A stretch of DNA of 64,000 nucleotides from a virus. Taxonomy: Duplodnaviria; Caudoviricetes. Below, piece by piece: positions 17,761 through 29,401 of this stretch; the stretch's first letter is position 1, and every line of letters starts with the position of its first letter. The position numbers and the translations under genes were made by a program. Below the pieces are notes generated by a model, which was not told the origin of the DNA, did not search any database, and saw only the letters and a program-made list of their open reading frames with translations. The stretch is taken from positions 32,001 to 96,000 of the IMG/VR virus record IMGVR_UViG_3300037424_000564; one strand, written 5' to 3'.

Positions 17761-17789
17761 AATATAGAACAGTTTTGAAAATTTGTCAA
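17761..17789 (-). promoter_or_regulatory. Sigma70-type promoter (one of about 20 AAATTGACA-type sites in the window)
   Basis: TTGACA-N17-TATATT on the minus strand. Confidence 0.75.
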
Positions 17790-18277
17790 ATCCAAATATC
17801 TTTAAGATCGATTCCTAGAGTTCTCATTTTGAAAAACATGTATTCAGAGAAGTTAGGGTGAGTTGCTGGTTTGATCAAAGTCATATTTGTCTGATGAAGC
17901 AATTTATCATCCTTCCAATTATTGCAGGTTTTACAAGCAGTTACACAGTTAAGGTAAGAACTTTTGCCACCTTTTGAAACAGGAAGAACGTGGTCAATGG
18001 TGCAAGTTTTTGGAGTTAGAACTTTACCACAGTATTGACAAGTATGGTTATCTCTAACCAAAACAGTTTTCTTTGAGAATGGAATTTTTTTATTCAAAGA
18101 TTGTTTGACTGCTTTAAGTAAGCGAATAACCTTTGGTAGATACATACCACCATGAATCAATCTATCAGTATTTTTAACAACTTCTACTCGATTTTTCACG
18201 ACTAGTTTAATTGCTTTTTTGATAGATACAACATTCAAAAATTGGTAATCATGAGTTAGAAGAAGTACGGTTGCCAT
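17786..18277 (-). CDS. HNH endonuclease
   Basis: CQYCG, TIDHVLPVSKGGKSSYLNCVTACKTCN. Confidence 0.9.
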   Translation of the reverse strand: MATVLLLTHDYQFLNVVSIKKAIKLVVKNRVEVVKNTDRLIHGGMYLPKVIRLLKAVKQSLNKKIPFSKKTVLVRDNHTCQYCGKVLTPKTCTIDHVLPVSKGGKSSYLNCVTACKTCNNWKDDKLLHQTNMTLIKPATHPNFSEYMFFKMRTLGIDLKDIWI

Positions 18278-18703: not shown

Positions 18704-19258
18704 TTAATAACTTTTACTTTCTTCGTATCGTTGTCTTCTATAAAATCTACCATTACCTATATTTTTTGATCTATGGTTATCAGTTTGAGTATGACAATTA
18801 GGACACAAAATTTCTAAGTTATCTGGTTTGTTATTAGAAGAATTCCCATCTTTATGATGTATTTCGAGTGTTAAGGCAATACCATTCCATTCTGAAATAT
18901 TACACTTACAACAAGATGAATATATTTCTTTGATATATTTTCTTACCGTAGCAGGATCTAATACTTCCCCTAAGCGAAATTTATTTCTATAATATTCTTT
19001 ATTTTTTACTACCTTATTTTCTTTAATTTTTGAAATAGTCCTACAAACACCTAAGTTATTAAAAGAAGCAGCACATGAATGATTGCAATATGTTAATTTC
19101 TTTTTTTCATATGATAATGGAGTCAGGCAAAACTTGCACAATTTTGGATCTTTATTATAATCTTCGATTCGTTTTGACTTTTTTGTTGCTTGTGTTTCTC
19201 TTCCTCGTTTAGCCGCTTCTTCAATTTTATTTTTGTTTTCTTCTGATATGCTTCTCAT
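18704..19258 (-). CDS. HNH homing endonuclease
   Basis: LEIHHKDGNSSNNKPDNLEILCPNCH; TATAAATA upstream; adjacent to tRNA-Thr. Confidence 0.85.
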   Translation of the reverse strand: MRSISEENKNKIEEAAKRGRETQATKKSKRIEDYNKDPKLCKFCLTPLSYEKKKLTYCNHSCAASFNNLGVCRTISKIKENKVVKNKEYYRNKFRLGEVLDPATVRKYIKEIYSSCCKCNISEWNGIALTLEIHHKDGNSSNNKPDNLEILCPNCHTQTDNHRSKNIGNGRFYRRQRYEESKSY

Positions 19259-19320
19259 AAAAATCTCCTATAAATGTTTCTTATAGTTATTTATAAAAAG
19301 CCCATCAGTTTATTCGGACT

Positions 19321-19407
19321 TGAGCCGGAAGAGGGATTCGAACCCCCGATGTAGTTTCCATACCTGATTACAAGTCAGGTGCAATCGACCAACTATGCGA
19401 TTCCGGC
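19321..19407 (-). tRNA. tRNA-Thr(UGU) with long variable region
   Basis: GCCGGAA/UUCCGGC acceptor, CCUGA-CUUGUAA-UCAGG, ~15-nt variable region, GGUUCGAAUCC T-arm. Confidence 0.85.
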
Positions 19408-19972
19408 ATTTTAAGGATTTGAACAAATATGTTGTTCTCTCATTGATTCTGTATCTAATATATTAGACCTCGTAGAATTCCTTTTACAACAGCAACGAGT
19501 TTTATTTAAATAATTTATCCCATTCATCTACTATTTTTTGCATTTTTTCTTCCTGATAATCCCAAAAACCAATAAATTCAGCTTCTTCAAATAATCGATT
19601 ACCTTCTGTCATAAATGGTTCTTCTGCATATAAAATCTTACATGGATCGACACTACATCCTTTATTAAGGACAAGGATATCACCCTCACTAAAAAAATCT
19701 TTCCAACAATTAATAGCGCACTCAATTACTTGTGATTCTGAATCAAATCGTTCAGTTTCATCACCCTCACGATAAAAACCACGCTCTTTAAACTTGTTTA
19801 ATTTTGCAGCACTTTCTTTATCTAGAACACGATTTAATGTAATCTTTTCAAGATCATTGTTAGAAAATAGTTGCAAATATCCATAATAATGAATAGCACC
19901 GGGACAAATACCAGCATAGCTTGAAGTTTCTAAACTAACTATTTTTGATGACATTTCGATAGTCCTTTAACT

Positions 19973-20052
19973 TAGCGGGGATAGTAGGAGTTGAACCTAC
20001 ATGTGTCCAATTACACTTTCAAGTGGGTAGAAGCCACAGGTGATATATCCCC
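19973..20052 (-). tRNA. Atypical tRNA-Arg(UCU)-like RNA lacking a normally placed D-arm
   Basis: GGGGAUA/UAUCCCC acceptor, GUGG-CUUCUAC-CCAC, AAUUGGA 3' of the anticodon arm, GUAGG-UUCAACU-CCUAC T-arm. Confidence 0.6.
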
Positions 20053-20067
20053 AAATTATTAATTTTT

Positions 20068-20152
20068 TGGTAGGGAAGGAGGGGATCGAACCCTCACCCA
20101 ATTAAGGACAGGATTTTGAGTCCTGCGCGTCTGCCAGTTCCGCCACTTCCCC
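20068..20152 (-). tRNA. tRNA-Leu(CAA)
   Basis: CAGGA-CUCAAAA-UCCUG, class II variable arm, ACCA end. Confidence 0.95.
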
Positions 20153-20199
20153 ATGAAAACTGGTCTTTTTAAGGTATGACCAAACCTATCAAGGCTGTG

Positions 20200-20343
20200 T
20201 TAGCCTTGACCAACACTTAGTTTCTTGCCACGTTTTTTATCTCTTTTCTTACGAATTTTAGTATTGGTTGATTTACCAATAGAAGTAACTTTAGTTGATT
20301 TCCGTTTGACTTGCTTAGTCGCATCTGATGCTTTAACTGCCAT
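20200..20343 (-). CDS. 47-aa highly basic microprotein
   Basis: MAVKASDATKQVKRKSTKVTSIGKSTNTKIRKKRDKKRGKKLSVGQG; AAGGAG SD upstream. Confidence 0.65.
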   Translation of the reverse strand: MAVKASDATKQVKRKSTKVTSIGKSTNTKIRKKRDKKRGKKLSVGQG

Positions 20344-20383
20344 TGTATAACTCCTTTGGTTGTTTGTCAATTTAATTAAAAAT

Positions 20384-20477
20384 TGGTACTCCGTGAGGGA
20401 CTTGAACCCCCATCATGCGATAATCTGTCGCCAAGCCTGTGTATAAAACAGGTGCTTTGCCATTAAGCTAACGGAGC
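20384..20477 (-). tRNA. tRNA-Ile(UAU) with long variable arm
   Basis: CCUGU-UUUAUAC-ACAGG, ~24-nt variable region, ACCA end. Confidence 0.8.
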
Positions 20478-20485
20478 ATGATCTT

Positions 20486-20570
20486 TGGTAGGGAAGGAGG
20501 GACTCGAACCCTCAAGCAATTAAGCGACGGATTTTAAGTCCGTTGTGAATACCAATTCCACCACAACCCC
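20486..20570 (-). tRNA. tRNA-Leu(UAA)
   Basis: ACGGA-CUUAAAA-UCCGU, variable arm, ACCA end. Confidence 0.95.
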
Positions 20571-20576
20571 ATGTTA

Positions 20577-20903
20577 TTACCTTGAATGTGGTGGATGCAG
20601 ACCAGTAGCAGATCGTGCCAGATCAACTAGATCTTTTGCTTCCTTAAGTCTAAAAGAAAAATTTGAACTAAGTTCTTTGATACAAGGAATCGGCGCATTC
20701 CCTTCTTTCAGAAGACGAACAGCAAGAACATAAGCTTCTTGATCTTCGCTTTTAACACCATCAGGAAGACGATATTCGGATACTTGTGAATCAGCGAAAT
20801 ATGCACAGAAACATGCCGGATCTTCTTTAGCGAGACGAATAGCAATTTTCTTGTAATCAACTGCAACATCACCAGTAAGGATATCGATAGCTTTTTTGTA
20901 CAT
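20577..20903 (-). CDS. Protein with ribosomal L7/L12 C-terminal-like motif
   Basis: IPCIKELSSNFSFRLKEAKDLVD resembles the L7/L12 IKxVR...LKEAKDLVE helix pair. Confidence 0.5.
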   Translation of the reverse strand: MYKKAIDILTGDVAVDYKKIAIRLAKEDPACFCAYFADSQVSEYRLPDGVKSEDQEAYVLAVRLLKEGNAPIPCIKELSSNFSFRLKEAKDLVDLARSATGLHPPHSR

Positions 20904-20970
20904 TATGAACCTCCGTTAGTTAGTTATAAGACATTGTAAACTAAGTTTACTTTTTTGTCAATTTAATTTG

Positions 20971-21043
20971 TGCGGAATGTAGGGATCGAACCTACTTATC
21001 AAGATCTTCAATCTCGCGCATTGACCACAATTGCTTATTCCGC
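20971..21043 (-). tRNA. tRNA-Phe(GAA)
   Basis: GCGGAAU/AUUCCGC, CGAGA-UUGAAGA-UCUUG. Confidence 0.9.
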
Positions 21044-21231
21044 AGATATTAACCTTCTACCATATAGATGAAATGTTTGATTGAGTTACAACGTTCACAC
21101 ATACCACGTTTAGCATAACCAATATTCATCATTGTTTCTAATTCTTTATGACATTCTAAACACAACCAAGTACCAGTATGAATTGTCGGATTCTTTACAG
21201 TATCTAGCATTTTTAGTTCCTTAGTTAAATT

Positions 21232-21315
21232 TGGCAGACGCAGGGGGAGTCGAACCCACAACACAAGTTTTGGAGACTTGCCTAACTCGCCCGGTTAGAT
21301 GAAGTTCCTGCATCT
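21232..21315 (-). tRNA. tRNA-Trp(CCA) with enlarged D region
   Basis: AGAUGCA/UGCGUCU, CAAGU-CUCCAAA-ACUUG, GCCA end. Confidence 0.75.
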
Positions 21316-21320
21316 ATTTT

Positions 21321-21391
21321 TGGTAGTTTACCTTGGAATTGAACCAAGCTATATTTCGATATGAGCGAAACATGATCCCAGATCGTAAACC
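21321..21391 (-). tRNA. tRNA-Met(CAU)-like with reduced D-arm
   Basis: GGUUUAC/GUAAACU, UUUCG-CUCAUAU-CGAAA, ACCA end. Confidence 0.7.
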
Positions 21392-21400
21392 GTGATACTT

Positions 21401-21572
21401 CGGGCCAGTAGAAGGATTCGAACCTCCAAAGATCATTAGAATACAACCGCCAGATACGTCTATCTACTTTATGCATTCCCGATCCAACTGTAGCCTTTCA
21501 TATACTTTCAGTCATGACTCCTGCCATATATGAACACTTTCTGTCTGCGTCTTCCAATTCCGCCATACTCGC
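21401..21572 (-). ncRNA. tRNA-framed RNA with a ~110-nt structured insert replacing the anticodon arm
   Basis: GCGAGUA...GGCGGAAUUGGAAGACGC Leu-like 5' half and GGAGG-UUCGAAU-CCUUC T-arm; inner helices UUCAUAUA/UAUAUGAA and GAAUGCA/UGUAUUC. Confidence 0.6.
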
Positions 21573-21928
21573 CATGTTTGTATTTAAATAATTCTACTAT
21601 ACTTTTTTATTCTTGTCAATATTTCTTTGCAACAAATTTGATTATCGTCAAAAGATGATTCTATCCTAATTAAGATTCTTTCGTATGTCCAACCAACTGA
21701 AATTCCGGTCAAATAAAATTCATACCAATCAATAACCATATCATTATTATAAATTGAATTCACTATTAAGTCAAGTGGTATTCCTAACGAATCCGACATT
21801 TTAAAAGCATCAAACCCAGAAATAACCATTTTATCTTCAGTAGTTATTCCTACAGATCTTAAACCGTAACATTTTTTCCATTTGCGTTTAGCTGTTTCAT
21901 TTGTACCTCGCCTATTCTATTAAATATT

Positions 21929-22002
21929 TGGAGCTAACATTCGGAATCAAACCGAAATCCAGACTGTACCAGAGTCTTATTCTATCATTGAACTATGCCA
22001 GC
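21929..22002 (-). tRNA. tRNA-Thr(GGU), degenerate D/T loops
   Basis: AGACU-CUGGUAC-AGUCU; T-loop UUUGAUU; D-loop lacks GG. Confidence 0.7.
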
Positions 22003-22003
22003 A

Positions 22004-22092
22004 TTGCGGAGAGTGAGGGATTTGAACCCCCAGATGTTTTACCACCGGACTGTTTAGCAAACAGCGTCCCTACCAGATTAGGCCAACTCTCC
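22004..22092 (-). tRNA. tRNA-Ser(GCU)
   Basis: GGAGAGU/ACUCUCC-G, loop UUGCUAA, long variable arm. Confidence 0.92.
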
Positions 22093-22336
22093 AAATGTTC
22101 TAATTCCTACTTGATTCCCTATATCCCAAGCATAATACATTTCATAATCGTTAAAGAAATTATAAGGATTTTCGACTAAACTTTTCAATCCTGCTTGGTA
22201 TCCATCATTATATTCTTGTGTTAGATCTAGTCTAACTGCTTTCCCTTTTGGAACACCGGGATATTTCCTACTCATTATTTTAATTCCTTTAGTATAAATA
22301 GGCTCGATTTGCTGATAGATTATCTTCACACCTATT

Positions 22337-22480
22337 TTGCCAAGGGAGTTGGATTCGAACCAACATTCTTCTTATTACTTGATATTACCCTCTCTTATCT
22401 AAAATCAGTGATATCAACTCTGATTTGTCCATTGAGCAATAATACCTTTCATAAGGTGCTTTCCAGTCAGCTATCCCCCG
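22337..22480 (-). ncRNA. tRNA-framed RNA with large central insert (no anticodon arm)
   Basis: CGGGGGA/UCCCUUG acceptor-like stem, AGCUGACUGGAAAGCA D-arm, GUUGG-UUCGAAU-CCAAC T-arm, inner AAUCAG/CUGAUU helix. Confidence 0.55.
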
Positions 22481-22499
22481 AAAGTTAATCTATTATATT

Positions 22500-22582
22500 T
22501 GGTAGCTCTGGGGAGACTCGAACTCCCAATCCTTTCGGCAACTGCTTCTAAGACAGTCATGTATACATTCCAACACAGAGCC
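22500..22582 (-). tRNA. tRNA-Leu(UAG)
   Basis: ACUGU-CUUAGAA-GCAGU, variable arm, ACCA end. Confidence 0.92.
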
Positions 22583-22589
22583 ATGTTAA

Positions 22590-22736
22590 TTAAAAATTTT
22601 TAATCTGTTTAAAATATCCACGATATAGACGTTTCATGCTTGCAGGATGAACAGTTTTACTACATCTATCACATGCTTTAGTTTTACTAGTAATTCTTCC
22701 ACATACAACACAAAAACATTTAGAATGTGATTTCAT
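22590..22736 (-). CDS. 48-aa Cys-rich microprotein
   Basis: MKSHSKCFCVVCGRITSKTKACDRCSK...; AGGAGG SD upstream. Confidence 0.55.
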   Translation of the reverse strand: MKSHSKCFCVVCGRITSKTKACDRCSKTVHPASMKRLYRGYFKQIKNF

Positions 22737-22745
22737 TAAACCTCC

Positions 22746-22821
22746 TAGTGTGACGTGTCGGTATTGATCCGACTAACAACTGATTCACAGTCAGTCTGCT
22801 CACTTTTTGCACTACGTCACC
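22746..22821 (-). tRNA. tRNA-His(GUG)
   Basis: G-1 plus GUGACGU/ACGUCAC, ACUGA-CUGUGAA-UCAGU; unusual T-loop AUCAAUA. Confidence 0.8.
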
Positions 22822-23061
22822 ACAACTGTAGTAAATAGTCTCAGGTCGCTACATCGTCTCATACATATTAGTTAATTTAAATTTCATGCCTGAAAGATAA
22901 TTAGAAAAAAATAAGTGCGTACTTTAATGCCCCTCAATGAACTATAATTAGTATCTCATTCTCCGTGATCAGTTAGAGCGATACCTGTTAATTCAGGTCA
23001 ACTGGTGCGCTGTCTTGTATATATGATAAATCATATCACATCTTTAGCGTTTGAGATTATA

Positions 23062-23196
23062 AGAGCCGATAGTCGGAGTCGAACCAACGCTTGTCTTATC
23101 AATGATTTCTTAGATTTAACTAGTCATCTAAAAGCTATCTAAAGACATTATAACAGGATTTTGCAGTCCCTGCTCTAGCCACTGAGCTATACCGGC
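23062..23196 (-). tRNA. tRNA-Cys(GCA)-like with ~65-nt structured variable-region insert
   Basis: GCCGGUA/UAUCGGC-U, canonical D-arm, CUGCAAA loop, insert closed by UGUCUU/AAGACA. Confidence 0.65.
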
Positions 23197-23205
23197 AATA
23201 TTTTT

Positions 23206-23323
23206 AGCTTTTGATTGTAATCGAACCAATCTATACAAAACCTCAAGGTGACTAGTCTTGATTCAAGCCTTTAGTTGTCAACTACCTGCATTTAGTTTTG
23301 TATAAAATCCATCTTTAAAAGCT
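23206..23323 (-). ncRNA. Acceptor plus T-arm RNA with a long central helix (resembles the tRNA-like domain of tmRNA)
   Basis: AGCUUUU/AAAAGCU, unpaired GGAUU segment, UAUACAAAAC/GUUUUGUAUA 10-bp helix, GAUUG-GUUCGAUUA-CAAUC. Confidence 0.6.
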
Positions 23324-23401
23324 TGAGCAGAATGGGAGAATCGAACTCCTAATTGTCAGCTTGGAAGGCTGATGTTGCTACCTTACAACTTATCATTCTG
23401 C
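23323..23401 (-). tRNA. tRNA-Gly(UCC)
   Basis: GCAGAAU/AUUCUGC-U, UCAGC-CUUCCAA-GCUGA. Confidence 0.9.
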
Positions 23402-23404
23402 ATT

Positions 23405-23557
23405 GCGGTAGATATGTCAGGTCTACCTTCCTTATTCCAGAGTCGCGTCATGGAAAACCAGAGGACTATTTAAGTTTTCGTATCCTTTAAGACCAGTTGC
23501 CAATTCTGGTCAGGATACTTATTTACCTTAGACGAAAGGTGGTTAATAGTCAAACCT
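23405..23557 (-). ncRNA. Multi-hairpin structured RNA candidate
   Basis: GACUAUU/AAUAGUC, GUAUCCU/AGGAUAC, GACCAG/CUGGUC, UUCCA/UGGAA and GGUAGA/UCUACC helices. Confidence 0.55.
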
Positions 23558-23581
23558 TTAACATAAAATCATTTATTATAA

Positions 23582-23668
23582 TGGTGGGTGTGGAGGGATT
23601 CGAACCCACGCTGGCGTAAACGCCTCCTGATTAAAAGTCAGGTATATTACCACTATATTTACACACCC
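23582..23668 (-). tRNA. tRNA-Lys(UUU) with class II-like variable arm
   Basis: CCUGA-CUUUUAA-UCAGG, GGCG-UUUA-CGCC arm, ACCA end. Confidence 0.85.
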
Positions 23669-23674
23669 CAAAAA

Positions 23675-23750
23675 GGGTGGATGCGGTGAGGTTCGAACTC
23701 ACGGCGTATCGGTTAAAAGCCGATTACTCTACCAACTGAGTTACGCATCC
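23675..23750 (-). tRNA. tRNA-Lys(UUU), canonical size
   Basis: GGAUGCG/CGCAUCC, AUCGG-CUUUUAA-CCGAU. Confidence 0.92.
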
Positions 23751-23760
23751 ATAATATTAA

Positions 23761-23835
23761 GTCATTTTCGTGACTACATACTATGAATGCATGTAGTCAC
23801 GAAAATGACTACATACTATGAATGCATGTAGTCAC
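23761..23835. repeat. 19-bp perfect inverted repeat plus 30-bp tandem repeat
   Basis: gtcattttcgtgactacat / atgtagtcacgaaaatgac; tgactacatactatgaatgcatgtagtcac at 23771 and 23806. Confidence 0.9.
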
Positions 23836-24145
23836 TATTGTTTATATTTTTTCATAATTTCATCATATTCCTTTTCTTCTTTGCTTTTAATTGAAAGGTT
23901 AGCTGCATTATCTAAGGTACAAGCAACAATAACAACCAACGTTGCCTCCCATGAAATAAAAAACCCAATGATAAGACAAATAATACCAATAAACCATAGA
24001 ATGCTACTTTTAATCATTTCAGTATCCTTTTTATTGTTTGGTAGCTCCTGCCGGTTACGATCCGACTGCTTCATCTTATCAGGATGATGTGTTACCATTA
24101 TACCAAGGAGCTATGTTTTATATAAGACACTTTAACATCTTTATT

Positions 24146-24499
24146 CTAGTCTGTCAATTTATAAATCATGACATAAACTTTTAAACCTTTTTTAGTTGCA
24201 TAATCAATCATACCTTTTGTCCCGGCAGACTTTCCGTCCCAAATAGCAATGAGCGCATCTGCATAGTCTACCATTTCTCTATTTCGGATATGACCAGCGG
24301 CTTTACCTTTACCATCCCAATCAGGAATAAAAAACTTTATAGAAATATGATTCTTTTCTGCAAACTCTTTACCTAGTCTATCTACCCCTCTAGCACCACC
24401 ACAAACAACTTCAGTTATAACAAATCTAGCTTCTTTAACAGCTTTGAGTATTAGATTATAGTCCGTTATATCTCTACTACCTGCGATGATTACTTTCAT
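24146..24499 (-). CDS. SLOG family protein (DUF2493/YspA-like)
   Basis: VIIAGSRD, VVCGGARGVD, AAGHIRNREM, WDGKSAGTKGM. Confidence 0.85.
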   Translation of the reverse strand: MKVIIAGSRDITDYNLILKAVKEARFVITEVVCGGARGVDRLGKEFAEKNHISIKFFIPDWDGKGKAAGHIRNREMVDYADALIAIWDGKSAGTKGMIDYATKKGLKVYVMIYKLTD

Positions 24500-25044
24500 T
24501 CTTTTCCTTTGAGATTACCTCTTCAAAAAACCCATGACAAGTTTGATTATTTCTCAAATGAGGAACAGGAAATCTCATTTTATCATTATTTTTCGTATTG
24601 AAGTTTCTTCTTAATTTAATTACAGTTCCGCATATTTTACAAATATATATCATCTTAGCATCATCTTATATACCTTTGATATATAATCTTCCATTCCTAA
24701 ATCTTTTAAAACAATACCTTCATTGATATATCGTTCAACTAATTCTGCTTCTATAGGATACCATTTACCTTGTTTGATATACCATCGTGTTCTACCTGAT
24801 GGATAAGTTCTACATTCTACCTTTTCAAGATACGAATTAATCGTGACATATTTTTCTATTTGAGTCATGGTGTCCTTTCGGGATCGAACCGTTGCAATTA
24901 TATTATTATAGCTATACACCCCGTATTAGCATTAAATATAATCTCTTGTCCATCATCTACTCTACCATTACTTAACATGTATTTCATGATATTTCAACTT
25001 TGCCCAAGTATCACATAGGAGTTGAACCTATGAGGGACATAATA

Positions 25045-25121
25045 TGGTGGGGCTTATCAGACGCTACCCTGATCCTTGTCCCTGATGTACGGTCAGGTTG
25101 TGCTACTTACACCATCACCCC
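25045..25121 (-). pseudogene. Non-canonical tRNA-like gene, GUA loop
   Basis: GGGG/CCCC-ACCA end, CCUGA-CCGUACA-UCAGG (no U33), T-arm replaced by AUCAG/CUGAU hairpin. Confidence 0.45.
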
Positions 25122-25133
25122 ATATTTGTTATA

Positions 25134-25212
25134 TTGAGATTGCAAAGGGAGTCGAACCCTTTATTCGAAGTTTTGCAGACTAAGCCCATTACCACAATGA
25201 GGAAATGCAATC
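25134..25212 (-). tRNA. tRNA-Cys(GCA)
   Basis: GAUUGCA/UGCAAUC-U, CUGCAAA loop, weak anticodon stem. Confidence 0.75.
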
Positions 25213-25235
25213 ATTTTTTTGTTCTAGATATTTTG

Positions 25236-25763
25236 TTATCTCTGAGAGGACCAGTCAGATGAACCACTGTCGATACAGACTAATGTATTGCAATAGTGTT
25301 CTTCTACATGACATCTACAACATAATGGAACACAATTTTGAATCTCTTTTAATATTCTATCCCAAGACCATCCTCTTAGGTTTTTAAATTTACTGTCTTT
25401 CTTTGTTGGGTCTACATGATGTAAATCAATAGCTCCATAATACTTATCATACCCACATTTAATACATTTTCCACCTAAATATTCAATAGCTTTTTTACGT
25501 TTTTCATTACCAACTTTTATTGTATATTTGTTGTGACATTTCGAACAAAATGATCGTTTTTTCCCATAAAATTTATCTGGATTTGTTTCACCACAAATGC
25601 ATTTATGTGTTATATTTCTAGGTGAAATTTCTATCTGTTTAGTATTATGTTCCCCATAAGGAGAGCATTCCAAACAATATTTTCTTGTATTAATTATTTT
25701 AATCTTCCCATCAATATTAACTCTATTTGGGAATTCTTTATTACATTTAGTACAGATTGGCAT
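25236..25763 (-). CDS. HNH homing endonuclease inside the tRNA cluster
   Basis: CIKCGY, IDLHHVDP, CVPLCCRCHVEEH; TATAAATA upstream. Confidence 0.85.
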   Translation of the reverse strand: MPICTKCNKEFPNRVNIDGKIKIINTRKYCLECSPYGEHNTKQIEISPRNITHKCICGETNPDKFYGKKRSFCSKCHNKYTIKVGNEKRKKAIEYLGGKCIKCGYDKYYGAIDLHHVDPTKKDSKFKNLRGWSWDRILKEIQNCVPLCCRCHVEEHYCNTLVCIDSGSSDWSSQR

Positions 25764-25843
25764 AACAGCATCCTTTGTAAGATAGATACTATTATTTATA
25801 AAAAATTTATCTTACATTCTCATAATATTATCCTTAGTTGAAT

Positions 25844-25919
25844 TGGCGGGGGATGAAAGAATCGAACTTTCGTCTTCTGGGTCAAAGCCAGATATGTTAC
25901 CACTACAATACAATCCCCT
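25844..25919 (-). tRNA. tRNA-Gln(UUG)
   Basis: UCUGG-CUUUGAC-CCAGA, GCCA end. Confidence 0.9.
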
Positions 25920-25920
25920 A

Positions 25921-25995
25921 TGGTCGGTGAGGCAGGGATCGAACCTGCATGATCTACGCCCCAAACGTAGTGGTCAGCCATTGACCCACTCACCG
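25921..25995 (-). tRNA. tRNA-Pro(UGG)
   Basis: CGGUGAG/CUCACCG, CUACG-UUUGGGG-CGUAG, ACCA end. Confidence 0.92.
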
Positions 25996-26018
25996 AATTA
26001 CTAATTAACTTTACCATA

Positions 26019-26094
26019 TTGTCGCGGAAGCAGGATTCGAACCTGCGACCTCTTGGTTATGAGCCAAGCAAGATAGCCTCTTCTCTATTCCGCA
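26019..26094 (-). tRNA. tRNA-Met(CAU), initiator-like
   Basis: U1-G72 weak first pair, AUAGAG D-stem like fMet, CUUGG-CUCAUAA-CCAAG. Confidence 0.8.
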
Positions 26095-26269
26095 ATAATT
26101 TTAAATAATTCTTTATTGAGTCTATCTTTTTGAACCCTTCGTACACTTCTTGAAATTAATTTTCTTTCTTTCCCATGATAGACATTACAACAGTAACATT
26201 TAAGTCCACCAATTCCACAACGAGAATTCATTTCTTGCCTAAAAATATCAGACATTATAATCTCCTATT

Positions 26270-26347
26270 TGGCACTCCTGATCGGGATCGAACCGACAAT
26301 TTTTGCCTTGAAAGGGCAACGACTTTAACCAATTTGTCTACAGGAGC
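26270..26347 (-). tRNA. tRNA-Glu(UUC) copy 1
   Basis: UUGCC-CUUUCAA-GGCAA, GCCA end. Confidence 0.92.
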
Positions 26348-26388
26348 ATGTTTAGGGATAGAATAATTGAGGGATTGAACCTCATATT

Positions 26389-26466
26389 TGGCACTCCTGA
26401 TCGGGATCGAACCGACAATTTTTGCCTTGAAAGGGCAACGACTTTAACCAATTTGTCTACAGGAGC
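26389..26466 (-). tRNA. tRNA-Glu(UUC) copy 2 (identical)
   Basis: Exact duplicate at +119 bp. Confidence 0.9.
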
Positions 26467-26477
26467 ATGTTTAGGGA

Positions 26478-26621
26478 TAGAATAATTGAGGGATTGAACC
26501 TCATATTTCGAACCATCAATATAAAGACCCATTTTCTTTATACACAAAGGGAATCGAACCCTTACTTGATACGACCAGTATTTAATAGGAATTGAACCTA
26601 ACTACTCACCAAGTTATTCTA
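26478..26621 (-). ncRNA. RNA with three T-loop hairpins
   Basis: UAGAAUAA/UUAUUCUA closing stem; UAGG-UUCAAUU-CCUA, AAGGG-UUCGAUU-CCCUU, UGAGG-UUCAAUC-CCUCA. Confidence 0.6.
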
Positions 26622-26696
26622 TGCGCCCTAGACGGGGATCGAACCCGCTACTTTCTGCTCGACAGGCAGACTCCACTACCAAATGGACTCTAAGGC
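26622..26696 (-). tRNA. tRNA-Asp(GUC)
   Basis: UCUGC-CUGUCGA-GCAGA, G73. Confidence 0.88.
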
Positions 26697-26709
26697 ATTA
26701 TTAAATTAT

Positions 26710-26799
26710 TGGCTCCAGTGACAGGCTTCGAACCTGTAAGTTCCTTGCGAGAACGCTTGATTAACAGTCAAGTGGGTTTGCCAATTCTCCTACACTGGA
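26710..26799 (-). tRNA. tRNA-Asn(GUU) with class II-like variable arm
   Basis: UCCAGUG/CACUGGA-GCCA, CUUGA-CUGUUAA-UCAAG, GUUC...GAAC arm. Confidence 0.85.
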
Positions 26800-26812
26800 A
26801 TGATATTAATTT

Positions 26813-26887
26813 TGGCTCCGAGAGCAGGGATCGAACCTGCGACAGGGTGGGTAACAGCCACCTACTCTACCACTGAGTTACCTCGGA
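26813..26887 (-). tRNA. tRNA-Asn(GUU), canonical size
   Basis: GGUGG-CUGUUAC-CCACC, GCCA end. Confidence 0.92.
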
Positions 26888-27037
26888 ATGTTATGCTACC
26901 GATTTACATTAGGCTGATAAAGTGAAATAATCATTTCCTAACTATCTTGTAGCGATGGAAATTCTATCACAATGAATAAGCAGTCTCACATGGAGTTAAA
27001 GTATTCAATTGTGACTTAAGATTGTAGCCGTATTCTT

Positions 27038-27106
27038 TGGTGGAGCGACTAGGACTTGAACCTAGAATTGATGGGTTACAGCCATGCGTGATACCAATTT
27101 CACTCC
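27038..27106 (-). pseudogene. Shortened tRNA-Tyr(GUA)-like gene
   Basis: AUGG-CUGUAAC-CCAU, normal T-arm and ACCA, but the acceptor 5' strand and D-stem share the same GUGA. Confidence 0.5.
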
Positions 27107-27112
27107 AAAATT

Positions 27113-27194
27113 TGGTGGGTATGGTAGGACTCGAACCTACATGCTTTCGCTACGGTGTTACAGACCGCTGGACCACCAATTGTCCAACATACCC
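27113..27194 (-). tRNA. tRNA-Tyr(GUA)
   Basis: GCGGU-CUGUAAC-ACCGU, short variable arm, ACCA end. Confidence 0.92.
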
Positions 27195-27199
27195 AAAGT

Positions 27200-27640
27200 A
27201 TGGAGACTAGTTATCGGACTAATCTTTATCCACATTTACTGATCCGATTCAGACTTAAGTTTATATTATTGTTAGACTACACACAGATCATTGTCCAGAG
27301 TTAATAGGCTCCTTCCTCCCTGATATCATCTTCAAATATAATTCAAAAGATTTAAGTTTTCGGGCATACCCAAGGTACTTATTACCTTAAAACTGAAGTA
27401 TAGCAAATAGGTAAATCTAAAATCTAACAACAATGGCTTTGACAGGGAGTTAGTTCCCTCCGGTAGGTATCATGTTGCAAATCATCGAATAGCCACTATT
27501 CATCGAATGATATTGAGAGTTTATTATTGGGATTGGGAAACTCTCTCTTTTACGCAACTGCTTAATAAGCATGGACCCAATTTTGATGTAAGATATTTTA
27601 ATATCTCTTGGAGGGCTTTTCATCCTCGTCGTTATCTTAC
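27200..27640 (-). ncRNA. Large structured non-coding RNA candidate
   Basis: No ORF in track; TTGACA-17-TAATCT promoter at about 27648-27680; helices GAUGUAAGAUA/UAUCUUACAUC, GAGAGUUU/AAACUCUC, AGGGA/UCCCU, UUGUUAGA/UCUAACAA. Confidence 0.55.
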
Positions 27641-27685
27641 ATCTTGTAATAAGATTACTACTTAATCATTTGGTTGTCAATTTAA

Positions 27686-27967
27686 ATCTTCAAGTTTTCA
27701 GGCATACCCAAGGGACTTGATACCTTGTATCTGAGAATTGAGAATTTTGATTTCAGGTGGTTATTCCAAGGACGTCTCCATTCTAATTAGCATTAGAACT
27801 TCACAGACTCACCACTATCCTATACATCCATCAAAACTTATCACTTTTGAAATTATAAACCGTGTCGTAATCTTTTCAGACCCAACAACCATACCTCAAT
27901 AAATAATGGCTGGCTTATAATTCTAGTCAAGCTACTCAATTTTTTCAAATAACTCGTTCAACATTGA
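27686..27967 (-). ncRNA. Structured non-coding RNA candidate
   Basis: Own sigma70-type promoter; AAUUGAG/CUCAAUU, UUAUAAGCC/GGUUUAUAA, UUUUGAU/AUCAAAA, UUCUAAU/AUUAGAA helices. Confidence 0.55.
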
Positions 27968-28402
27968 AATAATCTTACTACTTAACCATTTGATTGTCAA
28001 TTTAATTCCAAAATAAATTAATTAAGTTAGAGTTCACATCACACACCTTCCTTTCACAAAAGTAGGAGTTATTGATTTTTGATTTTCTCTATCGTAACAT
28101 GATGATTTTACTTTGTCAATTTATTTGTATAAACAGATAGTCATTGATTGCATTTAAACTAAACTCTGCAAAGTTAGATCGCACCTACCTATCGTCAAGC
28201 CTTATTGTCGCCCCCTCTGGTTATCGTCAGGCTCTATTGTCGTATACATCTATCCACTTCTATTGAGTGGGTTTTATTTCTGATTGCAGTCAGAAGGCAC
28301 TTCAATCAATGACTTTCTGTTTATACAAATAAATTGTCTTGTCAAATAACTCGTTCAACATTGAAATAATCTTACTACTTAACCATTTGATTGTCAATTT
28401 AA
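27945..28402 (-). repeat. Two ~60-bp identical promoter cassettes (27945-28005, 28342-28402)
   Basis: tcaaataactcgttcaacattgaaataatcttactacttaaccatttgattgtcaattta repeated; TTGACA-17-TAAGAT on the minus strand. Confidence 0.9.
28117..28336 (-). ncRNA. RNA closed by a 34-bp near-perfect helix, with internal tandem repeats
   Basis: Arms 28117-28150 and 28303-28336 with one mismatch; 21-nt repeats at 28190 and 28222. Confidence 0.65.
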
Positions 28403-28411
28403 ATTTTGATA

Positions 28412-28490
28412 TGCGCCCCGAGTAGGACTTGAACCTACATGTATCCAATTAACCTTTCAATCGGTTCGTAGCCGAAGGGTATACCGAGAC
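28412..28490 (-). tRNA. Atypical tRNA-Arg(ACG)-like RNA lacking a normally placed D-arm
   Basis: UCGG-CUACGAA-CCGA, UUGAAAG..UAAUUGGAUACAU then GUAGG-UUCAAGU-CCUAC; same layout as 19973-20052. Confidence 0.6.
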
Positions 28491-28501
28491 AATAAACTAG
28501 T

Positions 28502-28590
28502 TTGCAGCGAGTGAAGGCATCGAACCATTGACGCTATTAACGTCACCACTGTTTTCAAGACAGCTTGGGGAGCCAACCCCGGCACTCGCC
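28502..28590 (-). tRNA. tRNA-Ser(UGA) with 8/4 acceptor/T-stem fold
   Basis: GGCGAGUG/CACUCGCU 8-bp acceptor, GGGG/CCCC D-stem, CUUGAAA loop, UGACG/CGUCA arm, 4-bp T-stem. Confidence 0.75.
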
Positions 28591-28734
28591 ATTGATTAAA
28601 CTTTACTACATCTTTATTCAGTTGTCAAATTAAATATAGTAATTTCAACCCTAGAAGGACTTTCGTTAAACACTGCTAAAGCATTTTAAGTGTTAGTTGA
28701 AATCTTTACTGTCCATTAACTATATTATTGCTGT

Positions 28735-28808
28735 TTGTAGCTCTTAACAGAATCGAACTGTTGTTTATGGTATGTAAAACCACCACTCTACCATTGAGTT
28801 AAAGAGCT
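28735..28808 (-). tRNA. tRNA-Val(UAC)
   Basis: AGCUCUU/AAGAGCU, GUGGU-UUUACAU-ACCAU. Confidence 0.85.
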
Positions 28809-28815
28809 ATATTAC

Positions 28816-28888
28816 TTGTGGAGATAGGCGGAATCGAACCCCCTGCTGAGATTTGCAAGACCTCTGCCCTTTACCAAAACATACCCCC
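28816..28888 (-). tRNA. tRNA-Ala(UGC), short D-arm
   Basis: G3:U70 pair, GAGGU-CUUGCAA-AUCUC. Confidence 0.8.
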
Positions 28889-29401
28889 AAAACTAAAAAA
28901 CCCTTGTCACATAAGCAACAAGGGTGATAAATCTAACTATCCCTGTTACCGTTTACATTGTATCCCCACCAAATGCCCAAATAAGATATGAGCGCACATC
29001 AGCTTTAAAGGATGCAGTCATAGCACTCTCTAAATTGACTTTATTAATTGTGGGTTGATTTATATTCATATATATTTTTCCGTGTAAATTGGTTATCTTT
29101 ATTTATAAAAGATAAATTTTATCTATTCATGAAATAGCGTAACTAGTTGAAATAGTTATTTAAATTATTGATTTTTTCTATTCATTATAATCGATGCAAT
29201 ATAACTCACCAGTACCATGTAAATATTTTTGTAATGCTACAATTAACCCAAAACTTTCATTTTCTAGCTCACCATATATAACAGAACAATTTATTTCAGC
29301 CATAACTTTGTTGCATCGTTCATGTAACTTTAATGCTTCTTTTTGTCGTTCTTCTGGTTTGTTAGTTAAATAGTTGAATTCCATATTATCCTTAATTAAG
29401 A

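What the first reader, a model, noticed from the sequence alone, without database searches (positions are those of the whole stretch)
19973..28490. Both Arg 'tRNAs' have the D-loop motif moved to the 3' side of the anticodon arm
Seen: elements 19973-20052 (UCU) and 28412-28490 (ACG) have normal acceptor and T arms, no D-arm after position 8, and UUGAAAG-NN-UAAUUGGA-N-ACAU between anticodon and T arms. A 3-bp helix covaries between them (CAC/GUG versus ACC/GGU). They are the only Arg anticodons in an island otherwise covering all 19 other amino acids. Established: ArgRS reads A20 following D-loop G18G19. Inference: the displaced UGGA rebuilds the elbow and A20 determinant in a permuted topology, giving a functional or decoy tRNA-Arg that may resist Arg-specific anticodon nucleases.
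Basis: partly seen in the sequence, partly recalled or inferred. Interest (0 to 1): 0.78.

Follow-up and report, generated by a model that had tools for sequence, protein, structure and literature searches.

The report
Phage arginine tRNAs with rewired core
The two flagged elements are real, conserved genes for arginine tRNAs whose D-arm pieces sit in a different order along the chain. They belong to a large, almost unannotated, essentially phage-only family that keeps every contact needed for the normal L shape, so the tRNA cloverleaf may not be the only design that bacterial translation accepts.

Summary
Observation confirmed. Both 77-nt elements (minus strand, 20052..19976 with anticodon UCU, 28490..28414 with ACG) have normal acceptor, anticodon and T arms. 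They have no D hairpin, and a D-loop-like block lies 3' of the anticodon arm.

They are not oddities of this phage. Three capped scans of IMG/VR gave 139 distinct members. About 80 GenBank phage records carry it (Streptomyces, Microbacterium, Rhodococcus, Pseudomonas, Listeria, crAss-like). So do 14 MAG contigs, most of them inside dense tRNA arrays.

The 3-bp helix that encloses the anticodon arm covaries with all four Watson-Crick pair types. The equivalents of the tertiary pairs 15-48, 19-56 and 54-58 also covary.

135 of 139 anticodons are Arg and 4 are Ile. The A after GG (the A20 equivalent) is kept in all Arg types and is U in 2 of the 4 Ile types.

Where canonical tRNA-Arg genes lie in the same locus, the anticodons almost never overlap: 2 of 55 loci, against 17 expected.

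This phage has no other tRNA-Arg. UCU plus ACG match its Arg codon usage.

Best reading: working tRNA-Arg isoacceptors with segments 10-21 and 22-45 swapped. Resistance to nucleases is untested and has no support from the sequence.

I found no paper describing this. This scan has met the same family several times on other DNA.

The parts
19976..20052 (-). Rewired tRNA-Arg(UCU), 77 nt, from acceptor position 1 to G73
   Evidence: Sequence. CM R1 scores 91.3 bits. Rfam tRNA scores 31.3 bits with the D arm deleted.
20046..20052 (-). Element 1: acceptor 5' strand GGGGAUA. It pairs with 19977-19983.
   Evidence: 7 of 7 pairs. The family acceptor helix is 97.5-98.7% paired and all 7 pairs covary.
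20040..20042 (-). Element 1: strand p (CAC), equivalent to D-stem 3' strand positions 23-25. U8 A9 U lie before it at 20043-20045.
   Evidence: Pairs with 20014-20016. The family helix is 100% paired, with all four Watson-Crick types at each of its three pairs.
20022..20038 (-). Element 1: anticodon arm UGUGG / CUUCUAC / CCACU. The anticodon UCU is at 20029-20031.
   Evidence: U33 and A37 are invariant and C35 is present in 135 of 139 family members.
20017..20021 (-). Element 1: linker UGAAA (N44, G45 equivalents, then an AAA connector)
   Evidence: The commonest linker in the family is NGAAA. Distant members replace it with linkers of 4-11 nt.
20014..20016 (-). Element 1: strand q (GUG), equivalent to D-stem 5' strand positions 10-12
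20001..20013 (-). Element 1: displaced D-loop block plus joiner, UAAUUGGACACAU (U13, A14, A15, U16, U17, G18, G19, A20, C, A21, C, A, U48 equivalents)
   Evidence: Tertiary covariation for 15-48, 19-56 and 18-55. The motif is the same as the D loops of canonical phage tRNA-Arg.
19984..20000 (-). Element 1: T arm GUAGG / UUCAACU / CCUAC
28414..28490 (-). Rewired tRNA-Arg(ACG), 77 nt, from acceptor position 1 to G73
   Evidence: Sequence. CM R1 scores 88.9 bits. Rfam tRNA scores 18.9 bits, below the gathering score of 29.
28478..28480 (-). Element 2: strand p (ACC)
   Evidence: Pairs with 28452-28454 (GGU).
28460..28476 (-). Element 2: anticodon arm UUCGG / CUACGAA / CCGAU. The anticodon ACG is at 28467-28469.
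28452..28459 (-). Element 2: linker UGAAA (28455-28459) and strand q GGU (28452-28454)
28439..28451 (-). Element 2: displaced D-loop block plus joiner, UAAUUGGAUACAU
28422..28438 (-). Element 2: T arm GUAGG / UUCAAGU / CCUAC
20068..20152 (-). Canonical tRNA-Leu(CAA), 15 nt upstream of element 1. Probably the same transcription unit.
   Evidence: ARAGORN and Rfam
20342..20370 (-). Sigma70-like promoter match (TTGACA-17-TACAAT, 11 of 12) upstream of the Leu + Arg(UCU) pair
   Evidence: This is a consensus match only.
28505..28591 (-). tRNA-Ser(UGA)-like gene, 14 nt upstream of element 2
   Evidence: Rfam clan hit; anticodon loop read
28600..28628 (-). Sigma70-like promoter match (TTGACA-17-TAAAGT, 10 of 12) upstream of the Ser + Arg(ACG) pair
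   Evidence: This is a consensus match only.

Best explanation
Both elements are genes for working elongator tRNA-Arg isoacceptors. UCU would read AGA/AGG. ACG, presumably deaminated to ICG by host TadA, would read CGU/CGC/CGA.

Their core is wired in a different chain order. Canonical order is 1-9 | 10-21 | 22-45 | 46-76. Here it is 1-9 | 22-45 | AAA | 10-21 | 46-76.

The D stem is therefore a long-range 3-bp helix (plus a U.U) that encloses the anticodon arm and can stack on it. The D loop (A14 R15 Y16 Y17 G18 G19 A20 N A21) becomes a single-stranded joiner that runs straight into the 46-48 positions and the T stem. The secondary structure is a three-way junction instead of a four-way one. 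Every nucleotide used for the classical tertiary contacts is still present: U8-A14, R15-Y48, G18-U55, G19-C56, G10-C25 with G45, and T54-A58.

Inferred steps, not shown here: the RNA folds into the normal L shape; it is cut out of a short tRNA transcript by RNase P and 3' nucleases; it gets or keeps CCA; the host ArgRS charges it through A20, C35 and G/U36; and it is used on the ribosome.

Why phages keep this wiring is unknown.
For: (1) Family size and conservation. They score 55-97 bits on CM R1, against 25-38 bits for canonical tRNAs.

(2) Helix p/q. It is 100% paired, with all four Watson-Crick types at each of its three pairs: p1-q3 CG64 AU50 GC17 UA8; p2-q2 CG92 GC18 UA16 AU13; p3-q1 CG125 GC5 AU5 UA1 (tool counts). 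RNAalifold predicts it independently. In a mutual-information ranking its pairs stand 4th, 7th and 18th, and the top 15 are all helices of this structure. The rival local hairpin is only 52.6% paired.

(3) Tertiary covariation: 15-48 AU134 GC4 GU1; 19-56 GC130 AU6; 54-58 UA136 AU3; U8 and A14 are invariant.

(4) Identity. 135 of 139 anticodons are Arg. U33 and A37 are invariant, C35 is present in 135, and position 36 is G or U. The base after GG is A in all Arg types, and U in 2 of the 4 Ile-type members and in crAss-like cr130_1. The bacterial Arg identity set is A20, C35, G/U36 and A/G73, and U20 belongs to the Ile set (PMC9976931).

(5) Complementary anticodons. Of 55 loci that also hold canonical tRNA-Arg genes, only 2 share an anticodon with the rewired gene. 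Shuffles give a mean of 17.2 (sd 2.7), and the minimum over 10,000 shuffles is 7.

(6) This phage. There is no other tRNA-Arg in the 205 kb and no ArgRS gene of its own. Arg codon usage is AGA 51%, CGU 28%, CGA 10%, CGC 4%, AGG 5%, CGG 1%.

(7) CCA follows N73 in 81 of 139 members.

(8) Both genes sit 14-15 nt behind a canonical tRNA and downstream of sigma70-like promoter matches.
Against: - There is no expression, processing or aminoacylation evidence of any kind.
- Single-sequence minimum-energy folds of both window elements do not contain the p/q helix; z-scores are -2.7 and -1.5. A 3-bp helix needs tertiary support.
- Element 2 scores below Rfam's tRNA gathering threshold.
- The first anticodon-stem pair is U.U in 99 of 139 members.
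- The three-dimensional equivalence rests on positional mapping and on my recollection of tRNA crystal structures, not on a model.
- Covariation counts include related sequences, so they are not independent events.
It does not say which part.
Confidence: 0.8

Rival explanations
1. The RNAs are working tRNA-Arg, and the rewiring itself is the adaptation. The changed backbone path through the core hides the phage's tRNA-Arg from a tRNA-directed nuclease or defence system that recognises the canonical D arm or core. That nuclease could be the host's, or the phage's own host-shutoff enzyme.
For: - The family is essentially confined to phages. 14 of 19 pattern hits in 185,579 species genomes were confirmed; all are MAG contigs, most of them in dense tRNA arrays, and none is in an isolate genome.
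- It occurs in unrelated phages of Actinobacteria, Pseudomonas, Listeria and Bacteroidota-type hosts. That suggests repeated transfer and retention.
- It coexists with canonical tRNA-Arg genes rather than simply replacing them.
- From my own knowledge: phage tRNAs are known to counter anticodon nucleases, and Arg-specific ones such as colicin D exist.
Against: - The anticodon loops are ordinary tRNA-Arg loops, so enzymes that read only the anticodon stem-loop would not be evaded.
- No nuclease or defence gene was found linked to the elements.
- The same phages keep canonical tRNA-Arg genes for other anticodons. That is odd if canonical Arg bodies were under attack.
- Nothing here was tested at the bench.
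Confidence: 0.2
2. The RNAs are tRNA-shaped decoys or sponges. They would bind ArgRS, a nuclease, a modification enzyme or another elbow- or anticodon-reading protein, but would not be used in translation.
For: - The non-cloverleaf topology might be incompatible with some step of translation.
- The same island holds other tRNA-like RNAs without a clear decoding role: orphan T arms, and the other readers' notes.
Against: - A decoy has no reason to carry an anticodon that complements the canonical set of the same locus.
- It has no reason to be the only Arg species in an otherwise complete tRNA set.
- It has no reason to match the phage's Arg codon usage, or to keep acceptor stem, N73 and encoded CCA.
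- It would not lose A20 just when the anticodon becomes Ile.
Confidence: 0.08
3. The RNAs are charged with arginine but serve a process other than ribosomal decoding, for example as an aminoacyl donor for a transferase.
For: Nothing specific. It is compatible with the conserved acceptor end and the identity elements.
Against: - Anticodon diversity within the family (six Arg anticodons), its complementarity to the canonical sets and the invariant U33 and A37 all point to codon reading.
- No transferase gene was found beside the elements.
Confidence: 0.04
4. The elements are decayed or mis-assembled tRNA genes, or are really tRNA-Phe(GAA) read from the UGAAAG linker, as one copy in Streptomyces phage Mildred21 is annotated.
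For: - ARAGORN misses 138 of 139 members.
- GenBank records leave them blank, or label them tRNA-OTHER or tRNA-Phe.
Against: - Compensatory changes occur in every helix and in tertiary pairs across 139 sequences.
- For a GAA anticodon, the base at the would-be U33 position (model position 32) is not conserved (U78 A42 C13 G6), and no stem flanks that loop.
- Distant members replace the linker with unrelated sequence.
Confidence: 0.01

Closest known systems
Canonical bacterial and phage tRNA-Arg (class I cloverleaf, Rfam RF00005), including the canonical tRNA-Arg genes in the same phage loci
   Same: - 7-bp acceptor stem, N73 and often an encoded CCA.
- Anticodon arm with C/U32, U33, NCK, A37, A38.
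- T arm with a UUCRANY loop.
- D-loop sequence A-R-Y-(Y)-G-G-A-Y-A, identical in type to the canonical phage tRNA-Arg D loops.
- Identity nucleotides A20, C35 and G/U36.
- Overall length of 75-78 nt.
   Different: - Chain order: the D-stem 5' strand and the D loop follow the anticodon arm instead of preceding it.
- The D stem encloses the anticodon arm.
- The D loop is a junction strand, not a hairpin loop.
- There is an extra AAA connector, and the variable loop is split (44-45 before it, 46-48 after the D loop).
- The junction is three-way, not four-way.
D-armless mitochondrial tRNAs (metazoan mt-tRNA-Ser(AGY), nematode mt-tRNAs; reviewed in PMC7609411 and PMC4013460)
   Same: There is no D hairpin between position 9 and the anticodon stem. 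Standard tRNA finders score them poorly.
   Different: - Mitochondrial forms have lost the D arm and the G18G19 elbow contacts, and they rely on adapted mitochondrial factors.
- Here every D-arm element is kept, only moved.
- The RNAs must work with ordinary bacterial ArgRS, EF-Tu and ribosomes in hosts of several phyla.
Circularly permuted and split tRNA genes (Cyanidioschyzon merolae; archaea, PMC3218864)
   Same: The order of tRNA segments in the gene differs from the textbook order.
   Different: - Those genes place the 3' half before the 5' half, and they are processed through a circular intermediate into a canonical mature tRNA.
- Here the 5' and 3' ends are already the acceptor ends.
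- No simple excision or circularisation gives a cloverleaf, so the permutation must persist in the mature RNA.
Class II tRNAs with long variable arms, and other noncanonical bacterial tRNAs (tRNA-Sec, allo-tRNAs; PMC7609411)
   Same: There is extra sequence between the anticodon and T arms. Rfam treats the displaced block as a variable-region insertion.
   Different: The extra sequence is not a hairpin: the local pairing is only 52.6% kept. Class II tRNAs still have a normal D arm.

Membership tests
tRNA cloverleaf (Rfam RF00005) | A 7-bp acceptor stem joins the 5' and 3' ends and is followed by a discriminator base (and CCA). | tested here: met
   7 of 7 pairs in both elements. The family helix is 97.5-98.7% paired and all pairs covary. 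CCA is encoded in 81 of 139 members, but not in the window's two.
tRNA cloverleaf (Rfam RF00005) | A D-arm hairpin lies between positions 9 and 26. | tested here: not met
   Only UAU + 3 nt + C lie between the acceptor and anticodon stems. Rfam aligns 4 nt in place of 15.
tRNA cloverleaf (Rfam RF00005) | Anticodon arm with a 5-bp stem and a 7-nt loop carrying U33 and a purine at 37. | tested here: met
   U33 and A37 are invariant in 139 members. Four stem pairs covary; the fifth is U.U in 99 of 139.
tRNA cloverleaf (Rfam RF00005) | T arm with a UUCRANY loop. | tested here: met
   (98.7-99.1% paired).
tRNA cloverleaf (Rfam RF00005) | Score at or above Rfam's gathering threshold (29 bits). | tested here: inconclusive
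   31.3 bits for the UCU gene and 18.9 bits for the ACG gene.
tRNA L-shape (tertiary core) | Elbow pairs G18-U55 and G19-C56, Levitt pair 15-48, U8-A14 and T54-A58. | tested here: met
   By covariation only: 19-56 GC130 AU6; 15-48 AU134 GC4 GU1; 54-58 UA136 AU3; 18-55 GU136; U8/A14 invariant. No three-dimensional model or probing.
Bacterial tRNA-Arg identity set (PMC9976931) | C35 and G36 or U36. | tested here: met
   Both window genes have them, as do 135 of 139 family members.
Bacterial tRNA-Arg identity set (PMC9976931) | A20 in the D loop, directly after G18 G19. | tested here: met
   By positional equivalence. The base after GG is A in all Arg-type members. It is U in two Ile-type members and in cr130_1.
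Bacterial tRNA-Arg identity set (PMC9976931) | Discriminator A73 or G73. | tested here: met
   G in both window genes. In the family: G64, A51, U23, C1.
Bacterial tRNA-Arg identity set (PMC9976931) | Actual arginylation by ArgRS. | not testable with these tools
   Needs in vitro charging or charged tRNA-seq.
D-armless mitochondrial tRNAs | The D arm is replaced by a short connector, with loss of the G18G19 / T-loop elbow contacts. | tested here: not met
   The GG-A block is kept and covaries with the T loop.
Circularly permuted tRNA genes | The 3' half is encoded upstream of the 5' half, and the mature ends are created by processing of a circular intermediate. | tested here: not met
   The acceptor 5' and 3' strands are at the two ends of the 77-nt gene, in normal order.
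Class II tRNA (long variable arm) | A base-paired hairpin in the variable region, together with a normal D arm. | tested here: not met
   The local hairpin 37-39/48-50 is only 52.6% paired, and there is no D hairpin.

The most novel reading that the evidence does not exclude
A natural topological isomer of tRNA is accepted by ordinary bacterial ArgRS, EF-Tu and ribosomes in hosts of several phyla. Phages keep and exchange it because its altered backbone path makes their tRNA-Arg invisible to a host defence, or to the phage's own host-shutoff nuclease, that recognises the canonical tRNA core.
Probability: 0.2. Interest if true: 0.95.

Novelty: new variant of a known kind. Interest (0 to 1): 0.85.

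Why it matters
tRNA architecture is treated as nearly invariant outside mitochondria. Gene finders, Rfam's model and annotation pipelines all assume the cloverleaf order.

If these RNAs are charged and decode, four things follow:
- The L shape can be reached through a different chain topology that works with unmodified bacterial translation machinery.
- ArgRS recognition of A20 would be shown to depend on three-dimensional position, not on the hairpin context.
- Phage tRNA inventories are undercounted and sometimes mislabelled: ARAGORN missed 138 of 139, and GenBank records show nothing, 'tRNA-OTHER' or 'tRNA-Phe'.
- A ready-made scaffold for orthogonal tRNAs would exist.

Several carriers are cultured phages with laboratory hosts, so the question can be tested directly.

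Tried and rejected
- **Sequencing runs.** A search for public runs holding window 19300-29000 listed three sediment DNA runs and no RNA holder. Nothing can be said about expression, and no reads were laid.
- **Single-sequence folds.** The minimum-energy folds of both elements do not show the p/q helix. I kept this as a caveat rather than a refutation, because the alignment-based fold does show it.
- **Local hairpin.** A hairpin q/48-50, that is a long variable arm, is rejected: 52.6% paired.
- **tRNA-Phe(GAA) reading of the linker**, as annotated in Mildred21, is rejected.
- **Phage-encoded ArgRS.** None found with PF00750.
- **A base triple between the variable base after A20 (model position 48) and pair p1-q3.** There is no significant covariation.
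- **The A19-U56 elbow variant as a trait of whole phage lineages.** It is not: canonical tRNAs of the same loci have C56.
- **Whether canonical Arg is missing more often than other amino acids in loci with 15 or more tRNAs.** Uninformative, because the loci are fragments.
- **Long variable arms of the window's Thr, Ile, Lys and Asn tRNAs as possible intermediates.** They are plain hairpins with no D-loop motif.
- **Literature.** Eight full-text searches and four papers read found no description of this architecture. One search was badly designed and uninformative.
- **The earlier scan note 'part of it fell'.** I could not find out which part.

Full report
**What is there.**

On the minus strand of the window's tRNA island lie two 77-nt genes, at 20052..19976 and 28490..28414. 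Read 5' to 3', each has:
- a 7-bp acceptor stem;
- U8-A9-U;
- a 3-nt strand p (CAC or ACC);
- one C;
- an anticodon arm with a 7-nt loop (CUUCUAC with anticodon UCU; CUACGAA with ACG);
- UGAAA;
- a 3-nt strand q (GUG or GGU) complementary to p;
- UAAUUGGA-N-ACAU;
- a normal T arm, the acceptor 3' strand and G73.

ARAGORN tRNAs in the window but neither of these. Rfam's tRNA model aligns them with the D arm deleted and an 18-nt insertion in the variable region, at 31.3 and 18.9 bits. The shared 32-nt motif occurs exactly twice, against none expected.

**It is a family, not a local oddity.**

A 20-nt pattern taken from the displaced block found 59 IMG/VR loci, about 50 of which have the same full layout. 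Two relaxed patterns left the D-loop block or the linker free.

I built a covariance model from 45 members (R1). It recovers 139 distinct sequences at 55-97 bits, while canonical tRNAs in the same loci score 25-38 bits. Carrier contigs range from 4 to 553 kb.

In GenBank the element is present in about 77 Streptomyces phages and in Microbacterium phages. With R1 I confirmed copies in Streptomyces phage Mildred21 and Rhodococcus phage Trina, and in Pseudomonas phage HHBS10_2, Listeria phage LPML1 and the crAss-like phage cr130_1. These copies are unannotated, labelled tRNA-OTHER, or in one Mildred21 copy mislabelled tRNA-Phe(gaa). ARAGORN misses 138 of the 139.

A specific pattern scan of one genome for each of 185,579 prokaryote species gave only 19 hits. 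Fourteen were confirmed. All 14 are on MAG contigs, most of them inside dense tRNA arrays typical of phages. The single hit in an isolate genome was not confirmed.

**Secondary structure.**

Helix p/q is paired in 100% of sequences and shows all four Watson-Crick types at each of its three pairs. RNAalifold predicts it without being told. In a mutual-information ranking, the top 15 column pairs are all helices of the proposed structure; p1-q3 ranks 4th and p2-q2 ranks 7th.

The alternative, a local hairpin that would make the block a long variable arm, is kept in only 52.6% of cells. Single-sequence energy minimisation does not find p/q. That is expected for a 3-bp helix which needs tertiary support, but it remains a caveat.

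**Tertiary structure.**

The block after q reads U-A-R-Y-Y-G-G-A-N-A and is followed by C-A-U and the T stem. I mapped it to positions 13, 14-21 and 46-48. On this mapping the classical long-range pairs behave as in real tRNAs:
- 15-48 is A-U in 134 members, G-C in 4 and G-U in 1.
- 19-56 is G-C in 130 and A-U in 6.
- 54-58 is U-A in 136 and A-U in 3.
- U8 and A14 are invariant (tool count).

The invariant G of the linker fits G45 next to the G10-C25 pair (q1-p3, C-G in 125 of 139).

So the chain order is 1-9, 22-45, AAA, 10-21, 46-76. Two internal segments are swapped and all contact nucleotides are retained. Distant members replace NGAAA with unrelated linkers of 4-11 nt, which fits a mere connector. 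That the three new backbone joins (9 to 22, 45 to 10, 21 to 46) are sterically easy is my inference from remembered crystal structures. It was not computed.

**Identity and function.**

Of the 139 anticodons, 135 are Arg: ACG 61, UCU 47, CCU 17, UCG 8, CCG 1, GCG 1. Four are Ile (UAU 2, GAU 2). U33 and A37 are invariant.

The bacterial Arg identity set is A20, C35, G/U36 and A/G73 (PMC9976931). C35 and G/U36 are present in all Arg-type members, but N73 is G 64, A 51, U 23 and C 1 across the family. The base after GG is A in every Arg-type member. It is U in two of the four Ile-type members and in the Ile-type gene of cr130_1, and U20 is an Ile determinant in the same table. With both U's falling among the 4 Ile members out of 139, the chance is 6 in 9591.

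The strongest functional argument is complementarity. In 55 loci that also carry canonical tRNA-Arg genes, the rewired gene shares an anticodon with a canonical one in only 2. Shuffling gives a mean of 17.2, and the minimum over 10,000 shuffles is 7. Selection treats the rewired genes as members of a non-redundant decoding set.

CCA is encoded after N73 in 58% of members.

**This phage.**

The window belongs to a 205-kb, 31% GC virus record. The whole genome has no canonical tRNA-Arg, only these two R1 hits, and no ArgRS gene.

The other tRNAs cover 18 amino acids by tools. A tRNA-Trp(CCA) candidate that I read by eye would make 19. The two rewired genes would then complete the set.

Arg codons in 150 long ORFs are AGA 51%, CGU 28%, CGA 10%, AGG 5%, CGC 4% and CGG 1%. 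UCU together with ACG (read as ICG) would therefore serve nearly all of them.

Each gene lies 14-15 nt behind a canonical tRNA (Leu-CAA, Ser-UGA) and downstream of a sigma70-like promoter match. HNH endonuclease genes are scattered through the island, but none is immediately adjacent.

Nothing in the sequence supports resistance to Arg-specific anticodon nucleases. The anticodon loops are ordinary tRNA-Arg loops, and the same phages often keep canonical tRNA-Arg genes for other anticodons. Evasion of something that reads the tRNA core remains possible, and the phage-only distribution makes it attractive. I give it about 0.2. A decoy role is unlikely given the complementarity, the identity switch and the codon match.

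**Comparison with known things.**

The RNAs work like, and by function are, tRNA-Arg. They fail one defining feature of the cloverleaf, the D hairpin.
- They are not D-armless in the mitochondrial sense, because the D elements are retained.
- They are not circularly permuted genes, because the ends are normal and no processing restores a cloverleaf.
- They are not class II tRNAs.

Rfam 15 has no family for them other than a weak tRNA match. Full-text searches and a 2020 review of noncanonical tRNAs gave nothing.

**Earlier notes of this scan.**

This scan has reported the same family on other DNA many times since mid-October 2026, with the same reading. I reached mine before reading those notes. 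One of them is flagged as 'part of it fell' on a later check, without saying which part. For that reason I avoid claims of absolute absence from cells or of being the first of its kind.

**Verdict.**

- The structural interpretation is supported.
- The functional reading (working tRNA-Arg) is likely, at about 0.8.
- The nuclease-evasion motive is open.
- No expression or charging data exist. Cultured carriers make the decisive experiments straightforward.

Noticed in passing
window 21229-21316 (-): Candidate tRNA-Trp(CCA), read by eye. It has acceptor AGAUGCA/UGCGUCU, G73 and an encoded CCA, anticodon arm CAAGU/CUCCAAA/ACUUG, and an unusually large D loop of about 15 nt. Neither ARAGORN nor Rfam (E up to 1) calls it.
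   Followed up: partly
window 27041-27106 (-): A 66-nt tRNA hit found only by Rfam (37.6 bits). It has a GUA (Tyr-type) anticodon loop and a D region that seems to lack a stem. It lies directly upstream of the canonical tRNA-Tyr.
   Followed up: no
window 23064-23196 (-): A 133-nt tRNA hit (Rfam 38.3 bits). It has a normal acceptor, D and T arms, a GCA (Cys-type) loop, and an insertion of about 60 nt between the anticodon and T arms.
   Followed up: no
window 21332-21348, 21411-21427, 22348-22364, 25015-25031, 26368-26384, 26487-26503 (-): Perfect 5-bp T-arm hairpins with UUCRANY loops that belong to no called tRNA. Other notes on this window describe tRNA-like RNAs without anticodons in these places.
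   Followed up: no
window 19322-19407, 20384-20477, 23582-23668, 26710-26799 (-): Class I tRNAs (Thr, Ile-UAU, Lys, Asn) that carry long hairpin variable arms, 86-94 nt in total. The arms are plain hairpins with no D-loop motif, so they are not intermediates of the rewired family.
   Followed up: partly
window 17786-18277, 18704-19258, 25236-25763 (-): HNH endonuclease genes lie in and beside the tRNA island. The first is a clear Pfam match; the other two are weak.
   Followed up: partly
G000:C1:202687-202759 (-), outside the window: ARAGORN calls a tRNA with anticodon CUA (labelled Pyl). It may be an amber suppressor tRNA of the phage.
   Followed up: no
L184 2504-2579 (Streptomyces phage Mildred21, record 91367-91442): A rewired tRNA-Arg(UCG) scoring 82.6 bits on R1 is annotated in GenBank as tRNA-Phe(gaa). 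A second copy at record 94857-94933 is unannotated. The phage also has a canonical tRNA-Arg(cct).
   Followed up: yes
L071 89-170, L169 1498-1575, L123 785-860, L167 13043-13117, L093 14212-14288: Divergent members or relatives of the family, scoring 39-55 bits on R1. They have other linkers (7-11 nt, or AGUA/CAGC types) and partly different p/q registers. They may be separate sub-families of the same topology.
   Followed up: partly
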